A DNA stretch of 49,376 bases from a virus. Its lineage: Duplodnaviria; Heunggongvirae; Uroviricota; Caudoviricetes. Under the pieces are notes generated by a model. It saw only the letters and a program-made list of their open reading frames with translations. It was not told the DNA's origin and searched no databases. The stretch lies in IMG/VR virus record IMGVR_UViG_2531839433_000005, positions 1-49,376 of that record; one strand, written 5' to 3'. Below, in pieces: positions 6,235 to 49,376 of the stretch; the stretch's first letter is position 1; each line of letters begins with the position of its first letter. A program made the translations under genes and the position numbers.

Positions 6235-6873
6235 TTAAATATCTTGTTGAATTTTAAAGCATACGCCCAATATGCAAGATAGATCATCCAGCATAATTGA
6301 AGGGTAGCGAGGATTCGTGGGGACTAAAAGAATATCCGGCCCTTCTATCTCCAGTTTACGAATGACAGGTGTTGTGGTCCCTTTGGGTAAGGCAAGGACA
6401 ATATTTCCTGGTTGTACGGTTCGATCGGGATCAACAAAAACTGTTGAACCATTTGGGATGGAAACTCCCCCACCAGATGTTGACATACTGTCACTCTCTA
6501 GAACAACTGCAAAGGTATTGGCCGGGATTTCTCCGACAAGCTGCACACAAGAGGTTATTGAGGAATTTTTCATATAATCACTCCAGCTTGCTGCCTGCTG
6601 AAGTGATAGTAGCGGAACCGTTTTTATCGGCGGTAAAGATAGATCAAGCGAATCACCTGTATTTAACTCTCCTCCATTAAGAAGCCAATTTTCGTTTACT
6701 TTCAATATCTTTGCCAGTGAACTTATGTAACGCGAGGACGGCGCTCCTCCACCGTTCATCCATTGACTTACGGAGCCTTTTGATGCGCCAGTGGCATTGA
6801 CAAGGTCTTTGCCTTTCAGGTTTAGCGCATGCATACGTTGGGTTATGCGTTCAGATATTGTTTGCTTGCTCAT
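6235..6873 (-). CDS. cI: CI-type prophage repressor (XRE HTH + S24 LexA-like peptidase domain)
   Basis: 212 aa; N-terminal HTH; C-terminal DSMS Ser motif and downstream Lys (VIRKL) as in LexA/CI autocleavage domains; divergent from a Cro-like gene. Confidence 0.85.
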   Translation of the reverse strand: MSKQTISERITQRMHALNLKGKDLVNATGASKGSVSQWMNGGGAPSSRYISSLAKILKVNENWLLNGGELNTGDSLDLSLPPIKTVPLLSLQQAASWSDYMKNSSITSCVQLVGEIPANTFAVVLESDSMSTSGGGVSIPNGSTVFVDPDRTVQPGNIVLALPKGTTTPVIRKLEIEGPDILLVPTNPRYPSIMLDDLSCILGVCFKIQQDI

Positions 6874-42700: not shown

Positions 42701-45676
42701 GTGAGTATGGCAGTAAAGATTTCAGGTGTACTGAAAGATGGTGCAGGTAAGCCGATACAAAACTGCACCATTCAGCTAAAGGCCAGGCGCAACAGCACCA
42801 CGGTGGTGGTGAACACAGTGGCCTCAGAAAACCCGGATGAAGCCGGGCGTTACACAATGGACGTCGAGTATGGTCAGTACAGCGTCAGTCTGTTGGTGGA
42901 GGGATTCCCGCCGTCACACGCCGGGATTATCACTGTATATGAGGACTCAAAGCCGGGCACACTGAATGATTTCCTCGGTGCAATGACGGAGGATGATGTC
43001 CGGCCAGAGGCACTGCGCCGTTTTGAACTGATGGTGGAAGAGGTGGCGCGTAACGCGTCCGCAGTGGCACAGAACACGGCAGCTGCGAAGAAGTCAGCCA
43101 GCGATGCCAGCACATCAGCCCGTGAGGCGGCAACCCATGCGACTGATGCTGCAGACTCAGCACGCGCAGCCAGCACGTCAGCCGGACAGGCCGCGACGTC
43201 GGCTCGGTCAGCGTCTTCCAGCGCAGGAACGGCATCAACAAAGGCCAGTGAAGCAGCGAAAAGTGCTGCTGCTGCAGAGTCATCAAAAAGCGCGGCAGCT
43301 ACCAGCGCCAGTGCCGCGAAAACGTCAGAAACGAATGCCGCAGCATCACAAAAATCGGCAGCCACTTCTGCATCCACAGCGACCACGAAGGCGTCAGAAG
43401 CTGCCACCTCGGCACGGGGTGCGGCGGCCTCAAAAGAGGCAGCGAAATCATCAGAAACGAATGCATCATCAAGTGCCAGTAGTGCAGCTTCCTCGGCAAC
43501 GGCGGCAGGAAATTCCGCGAAGGCGGCAAAAACGTCCGAGACGAACGCCAGGTCTTCTGAAACAGCAGCGGGACAGAGCGCCTCAGCTGCGGCAGGTTCA
43601 AAAACAGCGGCTGCGTCGTCTGCCAGTGCCGCGTCAACAAGTGCCGGGCAGGCCTCAGCCAGTGCCACCGCCGCCGGAAAATCGGCAGAAAGCGCCGCAT
43701 CATCCGCTTCAACAGCCACAACGAAGGCTGGCGAAGCCACTGAGCAGGCCACTGCAGCAGCGAGGTCTGCTTCTGCAGCAAAAACCTCTGAAACAAATGC
43801 AAAGACTTCAGCAGACAATGCTGCTTCCTCTAAGGCGGCAGCCGCATCGTCCGCTGGTTCAGCGGCGTCATCGGCATCATCTGCGTCTGCTTCAAAAGAT
43901 GAGGCGACCAGACAAGCGTCAGCAGCGAAAGGTAGTGCCACGACAGCAACAACGAAAGCATCAGAGGCGGCAGGCAGTGCGACGGCTGCATCTCAGAGCA
44001 AAGTTGCTGCTGAATCCGCGGCAACGCGTGCCGAAACAGCAGCAAAACGGGCAGAGGATATTGCTGATGCCGTATCTCTGGAAGATGCGAGCACGACGAA
44101 AAAAGGTGTGGTTCAGCTTAGTAGTGCAACCAATAGCACATCTGAAACGCAGGCTGCAACGCCGAAAGCAGTAAAGGCCGCGTATGACCTTGCTGGCGCA
44201 AAATATACCGCTCAGGACGCCACGACGGCACAAAAAGGGATAGTCCAGCTCAGTAGTGCCACCAACAGCACGTCTGAAACACTGGCTGCGACACCGAAAG
44301 CGGTTAAGGCGGTAATGGATGAAACAAATAAGAAAGCCCCATTAAACAGCCCGGCGCTGACCGGAACGCCAACAACGCCAACTGCGCCAAAAGGGACTAA
44401 TAATACTCAGATCGCAAGCACGGCTTATGTGATGGCCGCGATTGCCGCACTTGTAGATTCGTCACCTGATGCACTGAACACGCTGAACGAGCTGGCGGCG
44501 GCGCTGGGCAACGACCCGAATTTTGCGACCACCATGACTAACGCGCTTGCGGGTAAGCAACCGAAAGATGCCACCCTGACGGCGCTGGCCGGGCTTGCTA
44601 CTGCGGCAGACAAGTTTCCGTATTTTACGGGGAATGATGTCGCCAGCCTGGCAACTCTGACAAAAGTCGGGCGGGATATTCTTGCGAAATCGACCGTTGC
44701 CGCTGTTATCGAATACCTCGGTTTACAGGAAACGGTAAATCAGGCTTCTGGCGCATTACAGAAAAACCAGAACGGCGCAGATATTCCGGGAAAAGATACC
44801 TTCACCAAAAATATTGGGGCCTGCCGCGCATATAGCGCATGGCTGAATATTGGTGGCGATAGTCAGGCCTGGACAACCGCGCAATTTATTTCGTGGCTGG
44901 AGAGTCAGGGAGCATTTAACCATCCTTACTGGATGTGCAAAGGCTCATGGGCTTATGCAAATAATAAGGTCATTACAGATACAGGTTGCGGAAATATTTG
45001 TCTTGCAGGTGCTGTGGTGGAAGTTATTGGCACTCGCGGCGCAATGACCATACGCGTTACTACGCCGAGCACGTCCAGCGGCGGCGGAATTACTAACGCT
45101 CAATTCACCTATATTAATCATGGTGATGCTTATGCTCCTGGCTGGCGACGAGACTACAACACGAAAAACCAGCAGCCTGCATTTGCTTTAGGGCAGACAG
45201 GAAGCAGGGTTGCAAATGATAAAGCTGTTGGCTGGAACTGGAATAGCGGTGTTTATGATGCAGATATCAAAGGCGCAACAGCATTAATACTCCACTTCAA
45301 TATGAATACGGGGAGTTGCCCTGCCGTACAGTTCCGTGTGAATTACAGGAACGGCGGTATCTTTTATCGTTCAGCGCGTGATGGTTATGGCTTTGAAGAT
45401 AACTGGTCAGCGTTTTACACCACAACCTACAAACCCTCTGCGGGGGATGTTGGTGCATATACCAAAGCGGAATGTAACTCAAAGTTTATTACAGGTATTC
45501 GTCTGGGCGGTCTGTCATCTGTTCAGACATGGAATGGTCCCGGCTGGTCTGACAGGTCAGGTTATGTCGTTACGGGTTCAGTTAACGGAAACCGTGATGA
45601 ATTAATTGATACAACACAGGCAAGGCCAGTTCAGTATTGCATTAATGGAACGTGGTATAACGCGGGGAGTATTTAA
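42701..45676 (+). CDS. stf: Side tail fibre protein (Stf-like) with invertible C-terminal part
   Basis: 991 aa; conserved N-terminus, long Ala/Ser/Thr-rich repeat region, two copies of the tail-fibre repeat (..VQLSSATNSTSET.AATPKAVK..), C-terminal domain encoded inside the invertible segment. Confidence 0.85.
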   Translation: MSMAVKISGVLKDGAGKPIQNCTIQLKARRNSTTVVVNTVASENPDEAGRYTMDVEYGQYSVSLLVEGFPPSHAGIITVYEDSKPGTLNDFLGAMTEDDVRPEALRRFELMVEEVARNASAVAQNTAAAKKSASDASTSAREAATHATDAADSARAASTSAGQAATSARSASSSAGTASTKASEAAKSAAAAESSKSAAATSASAAKTSETNAAASQKSAATSASTATTKASEAATSARGAAASKEAAKSSETNASSSASSAASSATAAGNSAKAAKTSETNARSSETAAGQSASAAAGSKTAAASSASAASTSAGQASASATAAGKSAESAASSASTATTKAGEATEQATAAARSASAAKTSETNAKTSADNAASSKAAAASSAGSAASSASSASASKDEATRQASAAKGSATTATTKASEAAGSATAASQSKVAAESAATRAETAAKRAEDIADAVSLEDASTTKKGVVQLSSATNSTSETQAATPKAVKAAYDLAGAKYTAQDATTAQKGIVQLSSATNSTSETLAATPKAVKAVMDETNKKAPLNSPALTGTPTTPTAPKGTNNTQIASTAYVMAAIAALVDSSPDALNTLNELAAALGNDPNFATTMTNALAGKQPKDATLTALAGLATAADKFPYFTGNDVASLATLTKVGRDILAKSTVAAVIEYLGLQETVNQASGALQKNQNGADIPGKDTFTKNIGACRAYSAWLNIGGDSQAWTTAQFISWLESQGAFNHPYWMCKGSWAYANNKVITDTGCGNICLAGAVVEVIGTRGAMTIRVTTPSTSSGGGITNAQFTYINHGDAYAPGWRRDYNTKNQQPAFALGQTGSRVANDKAVGWNWNSGVYDADIKGATALILHFNMNTGSCPAVQFRVNYRNGGIFYRSARDGYGFEDNWSAFYTTTYKPSAGDVGAYTKAECNSKFITGIRLGGLSSVQTWNGPGWSDRSGYVVTGSVNGNRDELIDTTQARPVQYCINGTWYNAGSI
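44707..44732. other. Left crossover site of Gin/Pin-type inversion system
   Basis: TTATCGAATACCTCGGTTTACAGGAA, inverted copy of the site at 47921..47946; about 75 bp of near-identical flanking inverted repeat. Confidence 0.7.
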
Positions 45677-45678
45677 TC

Positions 45679-46212
45679 ATGATGCACTTAAAAAACATTA
45701 CTGCTGGCAATCCTAAAACAAAAGAGCAATACCAGCTAACAAAGCAATTTAACATCAAATGGCTTTATTCAGATGATGGAAAAAACTGGTATGAGGAACA
45801 AAAGAATTTCCGGCCAGACACATTGAAAATGGCCTATGACCATAACGGCGTTATTATTTGTATTGAAAAGGATGTTTCAGCAATTAATCCGGAAGGCGCA
45901 AGCGTCGTTGAATTACCTGATATTACAGCAAATCGCCGTGCTGATATTTCGGGTAAATGGATGTTCAAAGATGGCGTAGTGATAAAGCGAACTTATACCG
46001 AAGAGGAACAGAGGCAGCAGGCAGAGAATGAAAAGCAAAGCCTGTTGCAACTTGTCAGGGATAAAACCCAGCTATGGGACTCACAGCTACGGCTGGGCAT
46101 CATTTCCGACGAGAATAAACAAAAATTAACCGAGTGGATGCTCTATGCGCAGAAAGTCGAATCTACAGACACCTCCAGCCTGCCAGTAACATTTCCCGAA
46201 CAACCTGAATGA
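45679..46212 (+). CDS. tfa: Tail fibre assembly protein (Tfa), orientation A
   Basis: 177 aa, N-terminus [21 protein letters not shown].. typical of the Tfa/gp38 chaperone family. Confidence 0.8.
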   Translation: MMHLKNITAGNPKTKEQYQLTKQFNIKWLYSDDGKNWYEEQKNFRPDTLKMAYDHNGVIICIEKDVSAINPEGASVVELPDITANRRADISGKWMFKDGVVIKRTYTEEEQRQQAENEKQSLLQLVRDKTQLWDSQLRLGIISDENKQKLTEWMLYAQKVESTDTSSLPVTFPEQPE

Positions 46213-46214
46213 GA

Positions 46215-46245
46215 CAAGGCCCGATAGCGGGCCTTAATTTTTATT
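46215..46245. terminator. Bidirectional hairpin terminator between convergent tfa genes
   Basis: AGGCCCG-ATAGC-GGGCCT hairpin with A/T-rich flanks. Confidence 0.5.
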
Positions 46246-46771
46246 CAGGCTTTTGTGGCCATTCAGGATTTGCCCTATCCACACGGCTGACCAGAACACT
46301 GTAGCGTTCCCATGCTTCCAGTCGTGTGCGTTCCTCGTCTGTTGCCATATTCAACCTGACAGCGCGTTCCAGCGGCTGGATGACTGATTCAGCTTCGGAA
46401 AGCAATGCGGCCTTTTGTGATTCGGCCTGTTGTTGCTGTTCGTCTGCCGTATAAATCCGTTTAACCACAGCTCCATCCTTAAACATCCACTTTCCTGAAT
46501 CATCAGCGCGGCGGTTGGCTGTAATATCTGGAACCTCGACAACGCTAAAACCTTCGGGATTAAGCGTGGATGCATCTTTGGTGATGGCGACAATAATATT
46601 ATTTGCATCGTAAACAATCTTTATTGTGTCTGGCTGAAAGTTTTTCACTTCCTCATACCAGTTTTTACCGTCTTCTGTATATAACCAGATAACATCAAAA
46701 TTCTTTGTTAGCTGATATTGCTCTTTTGTTTTTGGATTTCCTGACTTAATATTTTTTAAATGCTGCATCAT
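46241..46771 (-). CDS. tfa: Tail fibre assembly protein (Tfa'), orientation B
   Basis: 176 aa, paralogous to tfa on the opposite strand ([22 protein letters not shown]..). Confidence 0.8.
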
Positions 46772-47920
46772 TTACACCTGTGCGACGTTATACCATGTGC
46801 CATTGATGTATTTTTGTATTGGTCTGAAGATGGCTTCATCATCGCCATCTACTTCACCAATGATTCTTAATCCGGTAATTGCGTGTCCGGCTTTTTCATA
46901 GCGACCACCACGCGCCATCAATTGAACAACACGCGTACCCAGGCGAACATCTTTCACATAGCGGGAATCAAAATTCCCCCAGTTGCTGGGCTGCATCTGA
47001 CCGTTAACAGCAAATGTTACTGAGTTATCTGTATTTCGCTGACTATAGAAATGCCAGCCTGAATCATCACCAAGCTCTGCAACAGTTGGTCTTGATGAAG
47101 TGCCCCATAAATAAAACTTTGCGTTCTTCGTGGAGTTGTTGGAGCTGGATAGCGAGAATTTTTTACTATCACCTGCCTGAATGTTTTTAAAAGCAATAGC
47201 CACTCCATTCTGAAAGCGGAATACTCGCTGACTATTAGCGTAAACATCCAGAATACCATCACCATTCTGTTTAAATCCGGTATCATTATCACCCAAAACA
47301 ATCGAGTTACCGCCAAGAGCACTGGATGTTCCGATGCCCAGAGCACCATTCAATTGACCGCCAGATAATGACAACGCCCCAACCTCAGCAGCAGTCGGTT
47401 TAATGTGCGAACTGTAAATTACATATACAGTTCCATCTGTCAGGCCTGTTGGTTTATTCGCTGTATAAGTTGGTGATGTATGAATCGTTACGCTGGCGTT
47501 ACCGGTATAATCCCACTGAATATTAACACCTGTGGCGTAATTACCTATTTCAACATAAACATCATAGGTATCACCGGATGTATTCACCCATGCAATATTA
47601 GTAAATCCAGCCGATGTTCGTCGCCATAATGCACCAGTAATACCTTTTGGATTCCCATTTCCGGCACGCAGAACCAGCTCAGAGATGCCTGCCTGATGCG
47701 GGGCGCCAACGTTATACCCTGCGCCACCAATCAGGCTTATGTAAACCACGGAACTGGCTTGTGGCATTGTTACAGTTGCCAGTTTGAACCATCCAGCCCC
47801 ACCACTAAAAGACATGGTTGTTGAATTTGTTGTGCCGATATTACGCAGGAATAGTTTTTTATCGGGAATATCTGCGCCGTTCTGTTTTTTCTGTAATGCG
47901 CCAGAAGCCTGATTTACCGT
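46772..47920 (-). CDS. Alternative tail-fibre C-terminal variable segment (start-less in this orientation)
   Basis: Open frame on the minus strand from the right crossover site through a 347-aa ORF ending ..INGTWYNVAQV (cf. stf C-terminus ..INGTWYNAGSI); would be fused in frame to the constant stf 5' part after inversion. Confidence 0.6.
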   Translation of the reverse strand, partial: TVNQASGALQKKQNGADIPDKKLFLRNIGTTNSTTMSFSGGAGWFKLATVTMPQASSVVYISLIGGAGYNVGAPHQAGISELVLRAGNGNPKGITGALWRRTSAGFTNIAWVNTSGDTYDVYVEIGNYATGVNIQWDYTGNASVTIHTSPTYTANKPTGLTDGTVYVIYSSHIKPTAAEVGALSLSGGQLNGALGIGTSSALGGNSIVLGDNDTGFKQNGDGILDVYANSQRVFRFQNGVAIAFKNIQAGDSKKFSLSSSNNSTKNAKFYLWGTSSRPTVAELGDDSGWHFYSQRNTDNSVTFAVNGQMQPSNWGNFDSRYVKDVRLGTRVVQLMARGGRYEKAGHAITGLRIIGEVDGDDEAIFRPIQKYINGTWYNVAQV

Positions 47921-47946
47921 TTCCTGTAAACCGAGGTTTTAGATAA
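47921..47946. other. Right crossover site of Gin/Pin-type inversion system
   Basis: TTCCTGTAAACCGAGGTTTTAGATAA, resembles gix/hix/pix-type 26-bp sites as recalled; immediately upstream of the invertase start. Confidence 0.7.
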
Positions 47947-48000
47947 TGGCGGTTTCTGGCCTGCATGGCATGATTTGTGCTTTTGGACGGGAGATTCAGC

Positions 48001-48195
48001 GTGCTGATTGGCTATGTAAGGGTATCAACAAATGACCAGAATACAGACCTGCAACGAAACGCTCTTGTTTGTGCAGGATGTGAACAAATATTTGAAGATA
48101 AATTAAGCGGAACAAGGACAGGCCAACCTGGATTAAAACGTGCTTTAAAGCGCCTTCAAAAAGGTGACGCACTGGTTGTCTGGAAACTGGACTGA
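48001..48195 (+). pseudogene. Truncated serine DNA invertase (Pin/Gin/Hin family), N-terminal 64 codons only
   Basis: (V)LIGYVRVSTNDQNTDLQRNALVCAGCEQIFEDKLSGTRTG..LVVWKLD then stop; the catalytic-Ser region (YVRVST) is present but the rest of the catalytic domain and the C-terminal HTH are missing. Confidence 0.8.
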
Positions 48196-48233
48196 CTGGG
48201 TCACTGTATGCGGCATCTTGTCGTGCTGGTGGT

Positions 48234-48305
48234 GGAAGCCTGGAAAAAGTATCGGGTGTTGCTGAACCGTGTTGATACATCAACTGCACCTGATATTGAG
48301 TGGCC
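48234..48305 (+). repeat. 72-bp direct repeat, copy 1 (3' end of a Tfa gene; copy 2 at 49283..49354)
   Basis: GGAAGCCTGGAA(A/G)AAGTATCGGGTGTTGCTGAACCGTGTTGATACATCAAC(T/C)GCACCTGATATTGAGTGGCC; two mismatches between copies. Confidence 0.85.
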
Positions 48306-48381
48306 TACGAACCCTGTCAGGGAGTAATCATTGGGATTATGCCGCAGCACGTCTTAAGCAAGAACGTGCTGCGGTTGGATG

Positions 48382-49050
48382 CTATTTTTTCCCTGAAGCG
48401 GAAAACATTACTACAGTACCTTGAACCTTGGTTTTAACATTCTCGAAATGCTCTGAGAGTATATGTGTTAAGCCTTCTTCGGAATCTTTTGTGTTTGAAA
48501 AGATGCCTTTCTGATTGTAAATGCGCATCAGTTTTTGACCGAAGCTATTGTGCACAACTCCATCGCCAAGAATTGTGGCTCCGTATAGAGTTCCATCGTC
48601 AGTTAAGGCCTGCGCCGCATTGCGTATTACACAGCTTTTTGTAGATATATTTCCAGGCAGGCAGTGAAGAAGGTAAAACATGGAAATGGAATCAAATTGA
48701 CCATGTAACGCCGCGGGATAAGGATCAAAAACATCATGGCTAATTTTATGTTTAATTTTTGATTCCCCAGCCCTTGTAGATGCCGCGTTCAGGCTAGCTT
48801 CGTTCAAATCCATTAAAGATATCAGACTACTCTCAGGTACGTGAGTAAGGTAAAACCCAGTTCCAACACCAATATCCAGATGGTTGTTACCTAAATGTTC
48901 CAGAAAGTGTGGAAGAAGGTGTTCCTTTGTAGGACATCCCCATGCAAGCCGATTTGATACTCCCAAAACCCACCAGTCATAAAGCTTTAGGGTAAGTGGT
49001 GTGTAAATTTTAGCCCCATCATCTGTGTTTTTTTTCATTAATTTCACCAT
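48382..49050 (-). CDS. Class I SAM-dependent methyltransferase (cargo gene)
   Basis: 222 aa; motif I LDIGVGTGFY; AT-rich relative to the tail genes; flanked by the 72-bp direct repeats. Confidence 0.7.
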   Translation of the reverse strand: MVKLMKKNTDDGAKIYTPLTLKLYDWWVLGVSNRLAWGCPTKEHLLPHFLEHLGNNHLDIGVGTGFYLTHVPESSLISLMDLNEASLNAASTRAGESKIKHKISHDVFDPYPAALHGQFDSISMFYLLHCLPGNISTKSCVIRNAAQALTDDGTLYGATILGDGVVHNSFGQKLMRIYNQKGIFSNTKDSEEGLTHILSEHFENVKTKVQGTVVMFSASGKK

Positions 49051-49106
49051 GTTATAGTTTTATTTGTGAATTAAATCAATTGTGGCGATGAATTACAAGA
49101 GGTTAA

Positions 49107-49376
49107 ATGCTGCCGCAGCATAGCGATATTGAAATAGCCTGGTATGCTTCGATACAGCAGGAGCCGAATGGCTGGAAGACCGTCACCACACAGTTCTACA
49201 TCCAGGAATTCAGTGAGCATATTGCGCCACTTCAGGATGCTGTAGAGCTGGAGATCGCAACGGAGGAAGAAAACTCGTTGCTGGAAGCCTGGAAGAAGTA
49301 TCGGGTGTTGCTGAACCGTGTTGATACATCAACCGCACCTGATATTGAGTGGCCGGAAGAACCAGACACAATGTAA
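49107..49376 (+). pseudogene. Tail fibre assembly protein fragment (C-terminal part only)
   Basis: C-terminal ..[46 protein letters not shown].. matches Tfa C-termini; N-terminal part unrelated and preceded by AT-rich non-coding sequence. Confidence 0.6.

What the first reader, a model, noticed from the sequence alone, without database searches (positions are those of the whole stretch)
48196..49376. Methyltransferase cargo gene flanked by 72-bp direct repeats derived from a tail-fibre-assembly gene
The same 72-bp sequence, the 3' end of a Tfa gene, occurs at 48234..48305 (fused after the truncated invertase) and at 49283..49354 (end of a Tfa fragment). Between the copies is an AT-rich, minus-strand class I SAM-dependent methyltransferase (motif LDIGVGTGFY). 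This looks like a moron inserted by recombination that simultaneously deleted most of the invertase. Its substrate is unknown.
Basis: partly seen in the sequence, partly recalled or inferred. Interest (0 to 1): 0.6.

Follow-up and report, generated by a model that had tools for sequence, protein, structure and literature searches.

The report
Common prophage methyltransferase gene ybcY
This is the intact version of ybcY, a small self-contained methyltransferase gene of unknown substrate that sits after the tail-fibre genes of lambda-like prophages in about 70% of E. coli genomes; the repeats around it are old recombination scars, so the feature is real but ordinary.

Summary

The locus is the orthologue of the K-12 DLP12 module tfaD-ybcY-tfaX (97% nt identity). 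The gene is in 3799 of 5426 complete E. coli genomes and in free lambdoid phages. There it is always flanked by tail-fibre-assembly (tfa) 3' ends, 132-197 nt long, at the same 1047-1049 nt spacing. So the repeats predate the invertase truncation, which is a separate illegitimate joint (48229|48230) found in about 536 genomes.

The true cargo unit is about 48370-49193: the gene plus its own promoter, conserved across genera. 'TfaX' is a chimera of the first ~31 codons of a small divergent gene (phrog_3893) and the last 58 codons of another tfa allele (joint 49199|49200).

The protein has a confident Rossmann methyltransferase fold. It resembles small-molecule and lipid methyltransferases (JHAMT, UbiG, PmtA), not DNA methyltransferases, and is under purifying selection (dN/dS 0.11-0.21). 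Its substrate remains unknown. This is an already-annotated moron of low novelty.

The parts
47977..48229 (+). Remnant of a Pin/Gin-type serine invertase gene. It holds codons 1 to about 84, with a TGA nonsense codon at 48193-48195. It lacks the rest of the catalytic domain and the HTH.
   Evidence: PF00239 Resolvase profile positions 2-73 of 145. It is 95% identical to an intact 199-aa invertase gene (L007) up to 48191. It then continues in frame but diverged ([14 protein letters not shown] against LDRLGRSMKHLISLV) to about 48229.
48230..48327 (+). Last 32 codons plus stop of the tfa gene that normally precedes ybcY. The left direct repeat is 48230-48305. Joint J1 with the invertase is at 48229|48230.
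   Evidence: Homology to the intact tfa of the O104:H4 ompW prophage starts exactly at 48230 (96%, tfa nt 488-598). The same is true for K-12 tfaD and PhiR26_1. Repeat.
48341..48375 (.). GC-rich hairpin between the tfa stop and the methyltransferase stop. It is a likely bidirectional terminator and belongs to the tfa side of the joint.
   Evidence: Fold energy is -28.6 kcal/mol (z -3.7) on the + strand and -25.1 kcal/mol (z -5.8) on the - strand. Homology to the Citrobacter cassette starts only at 48370.
48382..49038 (-). ybcY-family class I SAM-dependent methyltransferase, 218 aa from the conserved start (ATG at 49038-49036). The mechanical ORF extends 4 codons further, to 49050.
   Evidence: phrog_2132 E 1.3e-156 over residues 5-222. 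Pfam Methyltransf_12/23. M5 is invariant and the upstream ATG is not conserved. AF2 pLDDT 89.5. dN/dS 0.11-0.21. 97% nt identity to K-12 ybcY.
49051..49098 (-). Promoter and leader of ybcY, conserved across genera. Candidate -35 TTGTAA (49098-49093), 17-nt spacer, TG-n-TTTAAT extended -10 (49075-49070). The alternative named by Shimada et al. is TTGATT (49079-49074)-17-TATAAC (49056-49051). An SD-like GGTGA lies 6 nt before the conserved start codon (ATG 49038-49036).
   Evidence: Alignment A2 of E. coli, C. freundii, Salmonella, C. braakii and Enterobacter upstream regions. An RpoD genomic-SELEX site with an H-NS mark lies in the K-12 ybcY/tfaX spacer (PMC3946193). The motif is present in the window. 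The consensus scan tool did not call it.
49107..49199 (+). First 31 codons of a small phrog_3893-type gene, the natural divergent neighbour of the methyltransferase. Here it forms the 5' part of the chimeric 'tfaX' ORF.
   Evidence: In C. freundii L022 the same N-terminus continues into an intact 80-aa ORF matching phrog_3893 (E 7.6e-38). Nucleotide homology to L022 ends at 49193.
49200..49376 (+). Last 58 codons plus stop of another tfa allele (the Tfa part of 'tfaX'). The right direct repeat is 49279-49354. Joint J3 is at 49199|49200.
   Evidence: PF02413 profile positions 75-130 of 131. This stretch is collinear at 90.9% with the 3' end and downstream DNA of an intact tfa in a ybcY-less prophage (L026 4990-5526 = L001 9301-9845), with homology starting exactly at 49200. 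The whole ORF matches phrog_2341.
49130..49333 (+). Match to Rfam family IS009 (RF02111), a candidate sRNA described from this K-12 region. It overlaps the tfaX ORF.
   Evidence: 122.2 bits against a gathering score of 117. The left repeat gives a partial sub-threshold match at 48205-48284 (47.5 bits).
44706..47952 (.). Context: the invertible tail-fibre segment (tfa, tfa', alternative stf C-terminus) bounded by 95-nt inverted repeats at 44700-44794 and 47858-47952. The invertase remnant belonged to this switch.
   Evidence: Inverted repeat I3, 92% complementary. The segment is the exact inverse (99.8%) of that in strain 504239, whose flanks are 99.9% identical.

Best explanation
The finding is the att-proximal end of a lambda-like prophage integrated in ompW of enterotoxigenic E. 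coli.

Its core is an intact orthologue of ybcY, which is a pseudogene in the K-12 DLP12 prophage. It is an ~0.8-kb self-contained cassette (about 48370-49193). The cassette encodes a 218-aa class I SAM-dependent methyltransferase, read leftward from its own sigma-70 promoter and ending at a hairpin shared with the late operon. This is a classical moron, which I infer is expressed from the prophage and, like other AT-rich foreign DNA, subject to H-NS.

Shown:
- The Tfa-derived repeats are not scars of an insertion into this prophage.
- The left copy is the 3' end of the tfa gene that precedes ybcY in every lambdoid carrier.
- The right copy is the 3' end of a second tfa allele, joined at 49199|49200 to codon 31 of the cassette's small divergent gene (phrog_3893). 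This produces the chimeric ORF 'tfaX' (Rfam IS009).

Inferred history:
- An illegitimate crossover took place between a phage carrying tfa-ybcY-phrog_3893 and the middle of the tfa gene of a second phage.
- Later and separately, an invertible tail-fibre cassette (stf/tfa/tfa'/stf'/pin) was joined at 48229|48230. This removed about 115 codons of pin and the first ~162 codons of the upstream tfa, and clipped the left repeat to 76 nt.

Inferred function, low confidence: the enzyme O- or N-methylates a small, probably hydrophobic or lipid-like host metabolite or xenobiotic in the lysogen. It does not methylate DNA.
For: Identity of the module:
- Window 48230-49353 is 97-98% identical to K-12 tfaD-3'/ybcY/tfaX and to phages PhiR26_1 and ev243.
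- ybcY is covered at 80% or more in 3799 of 5426 complete E. coli genomes and occurs in 15 phage records.

Repeats predate the pin event:
- Repeats of 197 nt/90%, 157 nt/85% and 132 nt/87%, at spacing 1047-1049, flank ybcY in O104:H4 (same ompW site, intact tfa), K-12 and PhiR26_1.
- The pin|tfa joint is found in 536 genomes.
- No genome has the 3' half of pin within ~1 kb of ybcY.

Joints:
- pin homology runs to 48191-48229 and tfa homology starts at 48230.
- Citrobacter cassette homology covers 48370-49193 only, with an intact 80-aa phrog_3893 neighbour.
- A ybcY-less prophage is collinear with the window from exactly 49200 onward.

Autonomy of the cassette:
- The promoter, SD and start block is conserved in five genera.
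- There is an RpoD SELEX site with an H-NS mark in K-12.
- A hairpin lies downstream of the stop, and GC is 40.8%.

Protein:
- Motif I and 58 invariant columns in the alignment.
- AF2 pLDDT 89.5, pTM 0.86.
- Foldseek top hits are PmtA, JHAMT, PfPMT and NodS.
- Profile against PDB: JHAMT 4e-6, UbiG 1e-3.
- dN/dS is 0.11-0.21 against Citrobacter, Salmonella and Enterobacter homologues.
- Homologues are stand-alone genes in unrelated chromosomal, island and prophage contexts.
Against: - No substrate is identified. Structural neighbours are generic (identity 12-21%, TM about 0.6) and no conserved partner gene exists.
- Expression in this strain is not shown. The consensus promoter scan found no site. 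The two candidate promoters differ in what leader they would give.
- H-NS may keep the gene silent, and the K-12 copy is a pseudogene, so it is dispensable at least in the laboratory.
- The order and parentage of the recombination events are reconstructed from extant mosaics, not observed. Gene conversion among tfa 3' ends (96% here against 85-90% elsewhere) blurs the history.
Confidence: 0.8

Rival explanations
1. One reading: a single recombination between Tfa-derived 72-bp repeats inserted the methyltransferase into this prophage and deleted most of the invertase in the same step.
For: The left repeat begins exactly where the invertase remnant ends. No intermediate with an intact pin next to ybcY was found.
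Against: The same repeat-flanked module, at the same spacing, exists with an intact tfa and no invertase at the same ompW site, in K-12 and in free phages. It is about 7 times more widespread than the pin joint. The right repeat is part of a different joint with a phrog_3893 gene.
Confidence: 0.05
2. YbcY is a PmtA-like phospholipid N-methyltransferase that converts phosphatidylethanolamine to methylated PE or phosphatidylcholine in the lysogen's membrane.
For: The best Foldseek PDB hit is bacterial PmtA 8ys9 (E 3.4e-11, TM 0.60-0.67, similar length). The best, though very weak, NCBIfam hit is Legionella PmtA. Phosphoethanolamine N-methyltransferases recur among the structural hits.
Confidence: 0.08
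3. YbcY is a DNA (or RNA) methyltransferase acting in anti-restriction or epigenetic control.
Against: The sequence has no (D/N/S)PP(Y/F/W) or PCQ/ENV motif and no target-recognition domain in 218 aa. There are no DNA-methyltransferase Pfam hits. There are no DNA methyltransferases among the top 50-60 structural neighbours. Homologues are stand-alone chromosomal genes without restriction partners.
Confidence: 0.03
4. The cassette is a selectively neutral hitch-hiker or decaying relic with no function in the lysogen. It is kept only because it lies between recombination-prone tfa ends.
For: It is a pseudogene in K-12 (a 2-nt deletion in the start codon). An H-NS site is reported. It is surrounded by gene fragments (pin', tfa', tfaX, DUF4376'). 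30% of genomes lack it.
Against: dN/dS is 0.11-0.21 across genera. The ORF is intact at 95-100% nt identity in all 3837 records that carry the gene. The 90%-identity protein cluster has 6589 members. The promoter, SD and start are conserved across five genera.
Confidence: 0.1
5. YbcY is an anti-phage or superinfection-exclusion factor, as are many genes found at the tail-fibre/att hotspot of temperate phages.
For: It lies in the variable att-proximal accessory region next to lom, and to ompT in relatives. It sits at the edges of mobile elements in other genera.
Against: The only PADLOC match is a marginal hit of the methyltransferase domain to mad2 (E 0.0044, 13.9 bits). It is a single gene with no partner. 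Many homologues are ordinary chromosomal genes.
Confidence: 0.07

Closest known systems
E. coli K-12 DLP12 cryptic prophage module tfaD-ybcY-tfaX (b0561-b0563)
   Same: Same gene order and orientation. Nucleotide identity is 97% over window 48230-49353. The same tfa-3' direct repeats lie at 1047-1049 nt spacing. The same promoter motif is present in the ybcY/tfaX spacer.
   Different: Here ybcY is intact, whereas K-12 has a 2-nt deletion in the start codon. The upstream tfa is replaced by a pin remnant, leaving only 76 nt of the left repeat. The prophage sits in ompW rather than at the DLP12 site. The right repeat is a different tfa allele (96% against 85% identity between the copies).
Morons of lambdoid phages (Hendrix/Juhala concept; examples are lambda lom and bor)
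   Same: An autonomous transcription unit with its own promoter and terminator. It has deviating base composition, lies between late genes and att, and is absent from some relatives.
   Different: Its product is a cytoplasmic-type methyltransferase, not an envelope protein. No lysogen phenotype is known.
Small-molecule class I methyltransferases: JHAMT, UbiG, bacterial PmtA, phosphoethanolamine N-methyltransferase, NodS
   Same: Rossmann methyltransferase core with motif I and an N-terminal helical lid, at a similar size of about 210-260 aa. These are the best sequence and fold matches.
   Different: Identity is only 12-21% and no family cut-off is met. The family-specific invariant residues (YDWWVL, AW-C-T, HD, LLHCLPG, GATILG, HN, YN-KGIFSN) have no assigned role.
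Invertible tail-fibre switches with Din-family serine invertases (e14 Pin, Mu Gin, P1 Cin)
   Same: Alternative stf C-termini and tfa genes lie head-to-head between inverted repeats, with an invertase gene next to the segment.
   Different: The invertase here is a dead 84-codon stump fused to tfa. Even so, the segment is found in both orientations among near-identical prophages.

Membership tests
Class I (Rossmann-fold) SAM-dependent methyltransferase | Glycine-rich motif I (D/E-x-G-x-G-x-G) | tested here: met
   LDIGVGTG at residues 58-65. D59, G61, G63, T64 and G65 are invariant in 29 homologues.
Class I (Rossmann-fold) SAM-dependent methyltransferase | Acidic residue at the end of strand beta-2 (ribose contact) | tested here: met
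   Invariant D81 sits at the end of predicted strand 76-81. The position is inferred from the model, not from a ligand complex.
Class I (Rossmann-fold) SAM-dependent methyltransferase | Seven-stranded alpha/beta methyltransferase fold | tested here: met
Class I (Rossmann-fold) SAM-dependent methyltransferase | SAM binding and methyl transfer | not testable with these tools
   Needs a biochemical assay.
YbcY family (phrog_2132) | Full-length match to the family profile | tested here: met
   E 1.3e-156, residues 5-222 against profile positions 1-218 of 218.
YbcY family (phrog_2132) | Orthologous position tfa / ybcY (opposite strand) / tfaX | tested here: met
   97% nt identity to the K-12 locus. 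The same order is seen in phages ev243 and PhiR26_1.
DNA methyltransferase (N6-A, N4-C or C5) | Catalytic motif IV (D/N/S)PP(Y/F/W), or PCQ plus ENV | tested here: not met
   Absent from the sequence. The only similar string, DPYP at residues 110-113, is not after strand beta-4. There are no DNA-methyltransferase Pfam families.
DNA methyltransferase (N6-A, N4-C or C5) | Target-recognition domain; DNA methyltransferases as structural neighbours | tested here: not met
Bacterial phospholipid N-methyltransferase PmtA (NCBIfam NF045882) | Score at or above the curated cut-off | tested here: not met
   17.6 bits against a cut-off of 390.
Bacterial phospholipid N-methyltransferase PmtA (NCBIfam NF045882) | Specific structural similarity to PmtA | tested here: inconclusive
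Moron (autonomous accessory unit of a temperate phage) | Own promoter | tested here: inconclusive
   A promoter-like block is conserved in five genera, and a published RpoD SELEX site exists in K-12. The consensus scan found none, and no transcript data exist for this strain.
Moron (autonomous accessory unit of a temperate phage) | Own terminator | tested here: met
   Stable hairpin at 48341-48375 just downstream of the stop, z -5.8 on the gene's strand. This is sequence-level evidence only.
Moron (autonomous accessory unit of a temperate phage) | Absent at the same position in related phages; deviating composition | tested here: met
   The ETEC1706 prophage has an intact tfa followed directly by the DNA that follows tfaX here. 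30% of genomes lack the gene. GC is 40.8% against 51.5%.
Serine invertase (Pin/Gin/Hin family), for 47977-48229 | Complete catalytic domain plus C-terminal HTH | tested here: not met
   Only profile positions 2-73 of 145 match. There is an internal TGA and the sequence is joined to tfa after about codon 84. The intact relative is 199 aa.
Tail fibre assembly protein (PF02413), for both flanks | Full-length domain | tested here: not met
   The right fragment covers profile positions 75-130 of 131. The left fragment is the last 32 codons. Both are remnants.
Rfam IS009 (RF02111) | Bit score at or above the gathering score | tested here: met
   122.2 against 117 at 49130-49333 on the + strand. Whether this is a functional RNA, or simply conserved tfaX DNA, was not tested.

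The most novel reading that the evidence does not exclude
YbcY is a lysogenic-conversion enzyme. It methylates a ubiquitous envelope lipid or small metabolite (for example PE head groups, PmtA-like, or a carboxyl or hydroxyl group of an isoprenoid or quinone-like compound) or detoxifies a xenobiotic. This would give 70% of E. coli strains a phage-borne chemical trait that has gone unnoticed because the K-12 copy is dead and the gene is H-NS-silenced in the laboratory.
Probability: 0.12. Interest if true: 0.6.

Novelty: already known. Interest (0 to 1): 0.2.

Why it matters
As a genomic feature it matters little. It is the intact form of a gene annotated in K-12 for decades, and its flanking repeats are typical mosaic joints at the recombination-prone 3' ends of tfa genes.

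Two points have modest value:
- An uncharacterised methyltransferase under purifying selection, with its own conserved promoter, is carried by prophages in most E. coli, including ETEC, EHEC and O104:H4. Its substrate is unknown and is a tractable biochemical question.
- The dissection shows how annotation labels mislead here. 'TfaX' and the Rfam sRNA family IS009 both correspond to a chimeric joint between a truncated small gene and a tfa tail. This is a caution for anyone treating them as genuine genes.

Tried and rejected
- Conserved partner gene. Alpha/beta hydrolases lie near the methyltransferase in phages, Erwinia and Enterobacter, but they belong to different families (Abhydrolase_1+TAP-like, COesterase, small Abhydrolase_1), and the other contexts lack one. 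I judged the co-occurrence to be chance.
- Defence-system membership. PADLOC gave only a marginal methyltransferase-domain hit to mad2.
- DNA methyltransferase. No motifs, no Pfam hits and no structural neighbours support it.
- Named NCBIfam family. All hits were far below their cut-offs.
- Viral structure library. Only generic methyltransferases were found.
- afdb50 fold search. The library was not available.
- Context of a distant family member, P0267.
- Naming distant family members. The cluster look-up gave only generic or 'UbiE' labels.
- Search for an ancestral state with an intact pin next to ybcY. None was found in 5426 genomes at megablast sensitivity with one pin allele.
- Consensus promoter and terminator scan. 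It found nothing in 47900-49376. The conserved promoter block and the hairpin were found by alignment and folding instead.
- Literature. No functional study of ybcY or tfaX was found in the searchable library. The hits concern SELEX sites, appY regulation and gene lists.
Full report
**1. What is in the sequence**

The surrounding region encodes, in order:
- a long side tail fibre gene (42701-45676, +);
- a tail fibre assembly (tfa) gene (45679-46212, +);
- an inverted tfa' (46241-46771, -);
- an inverted alternative stf C-terminus (46772-47815, -).

These are bounded by 95-nt inverted repeats, 92% complementary, at 44700-44794 and 47858-47952. This is a Pin/Gin-type invertible tail-fibre switch.

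Next comes a 72-codon ORF (47977-48195) that matches only the first half of the Resolvase domain. After it lie the features of the finding:
- a 76-nt direct repeat, 48230-48305 and 49279-49354, 96% identical with spacing 1049;
- between the copies, a 222-codon minus-strand ORF (48382-49050) carrying HLDIGVGTGFY.

The gene's GC content is 40.8% against 51.5% for the window. The right copy lies in an 89-codon ORF (49107-49376) whose C-terminal 56 residues match the end of the Tfa domain.

**2. Where it comes from**

The 1.48 kb from 47900 to the window end is 100% identical in 7 complete E. coli genomes, mostly ETEC, and covered at 80% or more in 409. This rules out an assembly artefact.

In strain 504239 the locus is the right end of a lambdoid prophage (J, lom, stf and so on). 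About 540 bp further on lies a truncated ompW next to yciE and the trp operon, which marks attR.

**3. The module is the well-known tfaD-ybcY-tfaX of DLP12**

A phage record annotated the protein as 'YbcY'. K-12 DLP12 carries tfaD, ybcY (a minus-strand pseudogene) and tfaX. Window 48230-49353 is 97% identical to that stretch, and 98% identical to phages PhiR26_1 and ev243.

The gene alone is covered at 80% or more in 3799 of 5426 complete E. coli genomes, always at 95% identity or higher and in up to 4 copies. It also occurs in 15 phage records.

An O104:H4 prophage at the same ompW site has J, lom, stf, an intact 585-nt tfa, ybcY, tfaX, a DUF4376 remnant and ompW'. Wherever the upstream tfa is intact, ybcY is flanked by longer direct repeats at the same spacing:

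| Carrier | Repeat length | Identity | Spacing |
|---|---|---|---|
| O104:H4 prophage | 197 nt | 90% | 1049 |
| K-12 DLP12 | 157 nt | 85% | 1047 |
| PhiR26_1 | 132 nt | 87% | 1049 |

The repeat geometry is therefore a constant, older property of the module. It is not a scar of an event in this prophage.

**4. The three joints**

*J1 (48229|48230).*
- An intact 199-aa invertase gene from a P2-like prophage (L007) is 95% identical to the window up to 48191.
- The next 38 nt are a diverged but in-frame continuation ([14 protein letters not shown] against LDRLGRSMKHLISLV), with CGA changed to TGA at 48193.
- Homology to the intact tfa starts exactly at 48230, at tfa nt 488 of 585.
- A 181-nt probe across this joint is covered at 80% or more in 536 genomes.
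- No genome has the 3' half of pin within ~1 kb of ybcY.

*J2 (about 48370-48376).* Homology to a C. freundii copy of the cassette (91.4% nt) covers window 48370-49193 only, with no tfa sequence on either side. The stable hairpin at 48341-48375 therefore belongs to the tfa/late-operon side.

*J3 (49199|49200).*
- In C. freundii the DNA upstream of the methyltransferase encodes, divergently, an intact 80-aa ORF. Its first ~30 residues are those of 'TfaX' ([22 protein letters not shown]...).
- That ORF matches phrog_3893 (E 7.6e-38) and is followed by a UmuD-like fragment.
- A ybcY-less prophage at tRNA-Ser (ETEC1706) has an intact tfa. Its last 177 nt and the following 360 nt are collinear (90.9%) with window 49200 onward and the DNA beyond the window end.
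- 'TfaX' (phrog_2341) is thus a chimera: 31 codons of a phrog_3893 gene joined to the last 58 codons of a tfa allele.
- The same stretch reaches the gathering score of Rfam IS009.

**5. Reconstruction (inferred)**

A lambdoid phage carried tfa, hairpin, ybcY (leftward) and a phrog_3893 gene (rightward). An illegitimate crossover joined codon 31 of the small gene to the middle of the tfa gene of another phage. The result was a viable recombinant with one complete tfa, the cassette, and a leftover tfa tail.

The 85-90% identity between the two copies in most carriers fits two parental alleles better than an in-situ duplication. Much later, in a lineage now found in about 10% of genomes, an invertible tail-fibre cassette with its invertase was joined at J1. 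This cost the invertase its last ~115 codons and the upstream tfa its first ~162.

Its description of the parts is correct.

**6. The cassette is autonomous**

I aligned the upstream regions from the E. coli phage module, K-12, C. freundii, Salmonella, C. braakii and Enterobacter, whose coding sequences are 69-91% identical to the window's. The alignment shows an invariant block, TTGATTTAATTCAC, preceded by CTTG(T/C)(A/C)ATT and followed by AACTATAAC-n2-GGTGAAAT-n-AATG.

This block can be read in two ways:
- TTGTAA-17-TG-n-TTTAAT, an extended -10 promoter;
- TTGATT-17-TATAAC, as listed by Shimada et al. for a K-12 RpoD SELEX peak marked as H-NS bound (PMC3946193).

The conserved ATG is codon 5 of the mechanical ORF. 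M5 is invariant and the profile match starts at residue 5, so the protein is 218 aa. The K-12 pseudogene has lost 2 nt of this ATG. The simple consensus scan called neither promoter nor terminator.

**7. The protein**

- Pfam: Methyltransf_12, 23, 25 and 11.
- NCBIfam: only sub-threshold hits, namely PmtA, CpaM and RquA.
- PADLOC: nothing meaningful.
- PDB by sequence: JHAMT and UbiG, weak. With a family profile, JHAMT scores 4e-6 and UbiG 1e-3.
- AlphaFold2 on a 29-sequence alignment: pLDDT 89.5, pTM 0.86, a classic Rossmann methyltransferase with two N-terminal helices.
- Foldseek against PDB: PmtA, JHAMT, phosphoethanolamine N-methyltransferases, NodS, CysG/SgvM (E about 1e-10, TM about 0.6).

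No DNA methyltransferase appears among these neighbours. The sequence lacks DNA-methyltransferase motif IV and any target-recognition domain.

The family is distinct and sizeable: 415 clusters at 50% identity with E of 1e-30 or better. It has strongly conserved residues of its own.

Homologues at 56-69% identity are stand-alone genes in unrelated settings:
- Salmonella, near hrpA and cybB;
- Erwinia;
- Enterobacter;
- Yersinia;
- Aeromonas, flanked by IS elements;
- Citrobacter braakii, beside sodC and prophage debris;
- a Pasteurellaceae island beside ompW.

No conserved neighbour exists; the nearby hydrolases belong to different families. dN/dS against Citrobacter, Salmonella and Enterobacter copies is 0.11-0.21.

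I conclude that it is a functional small-molecule or lipid-type methyltransferase whose substrate cannot be named from these data. I found no functional study in the searchable literature.

**8. Verdict**

It is wrong on mechanism and timing.

The feature is already annotated and extremely common, so novelty and interest are low. The remaining open question is the substrate of YbcY. The most novel reading that the data allow is a phage-borne lipid or metabolite methylation trait in most E. coli, which I put at about 12%.

Noticed in passing
window 44706-47952 (against L001 4801-8047): The 3.2-kb invertible tail-fibre segment is in the opposite orientation to that of strain 504239, although the flanks are 99.9% identical and both carry the same dead invertase stump. 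Strain WS1933D has the window's orientation. The switch has therefore flipped since the invertase was truncated. Possible causes are an invertase supplied in trans, RecA acting on the 95-nt inverted repeats, or segment replacement.
   Followed up: partly
window 49130-49333 (+); weaker at 48205-48284: Rfam family IS009 (RF02111), a candidate sRNA, matches above its gathering score. The match coincides with the chimeric tfaX ORF, which spans a recombination joint (49199|49200). The family may describe conserved mosaic DNA rather than a dedicated RNA gene.
   Followed up: partly
window 49107-49376; L022 4699-4941: 'TfaX' (phrog_2341) is an in-frame fusion of the N-terminus of a phrog_3893 protein (intact and 80 aa in C. 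freundii, followed by a UmuD-like fragment) with a Tfa C-terminus. The function of phrog_3893 is unknown.
   Followed up: yes
L004 (K-12) about 6795-6810 against window 49036-49050: The K-12 ybcY pseudogene has a 2-nt deletion that removes the conserved start ATG (AATTAAT--AAAAAAAC). This explains why the laboratory strain is a natural null.
   Followed up: partly
window 48300-48437 (+): RefSeq annotates a 45-aa 'hypothetical protein' (WP_001309429.1) here. It overlaps the tfa stop, the hairpin and the 3' end of the methyltransferase on the opposite strand, and is most likely a spurious call.
   Followed up: no
L001 9478-10014; L005 7241-7510 (beyond the window end): Between tfaX and the truncated ompW (attR) the two ompW prophages differ. 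O104:H4 has a DUF4376 tail-fibre-related pseudogene, and strain 504239 has about 540 bp that in ETEC1706 follow an intact tfa. The att-proximal end is a graveyard of tail-fibre gene fragments.
   Followed up: partly
L020 5001-6589 (Testudinibacter, Pasteurellaceae): A 57%-identical homologue of the methyltransferase sits at the edge of an AlpA-type island directly next to an intact ompW gene. This is a curious echo of the ompW integration site of the E. coli prophage and may be coincidence.
   Followed up: no
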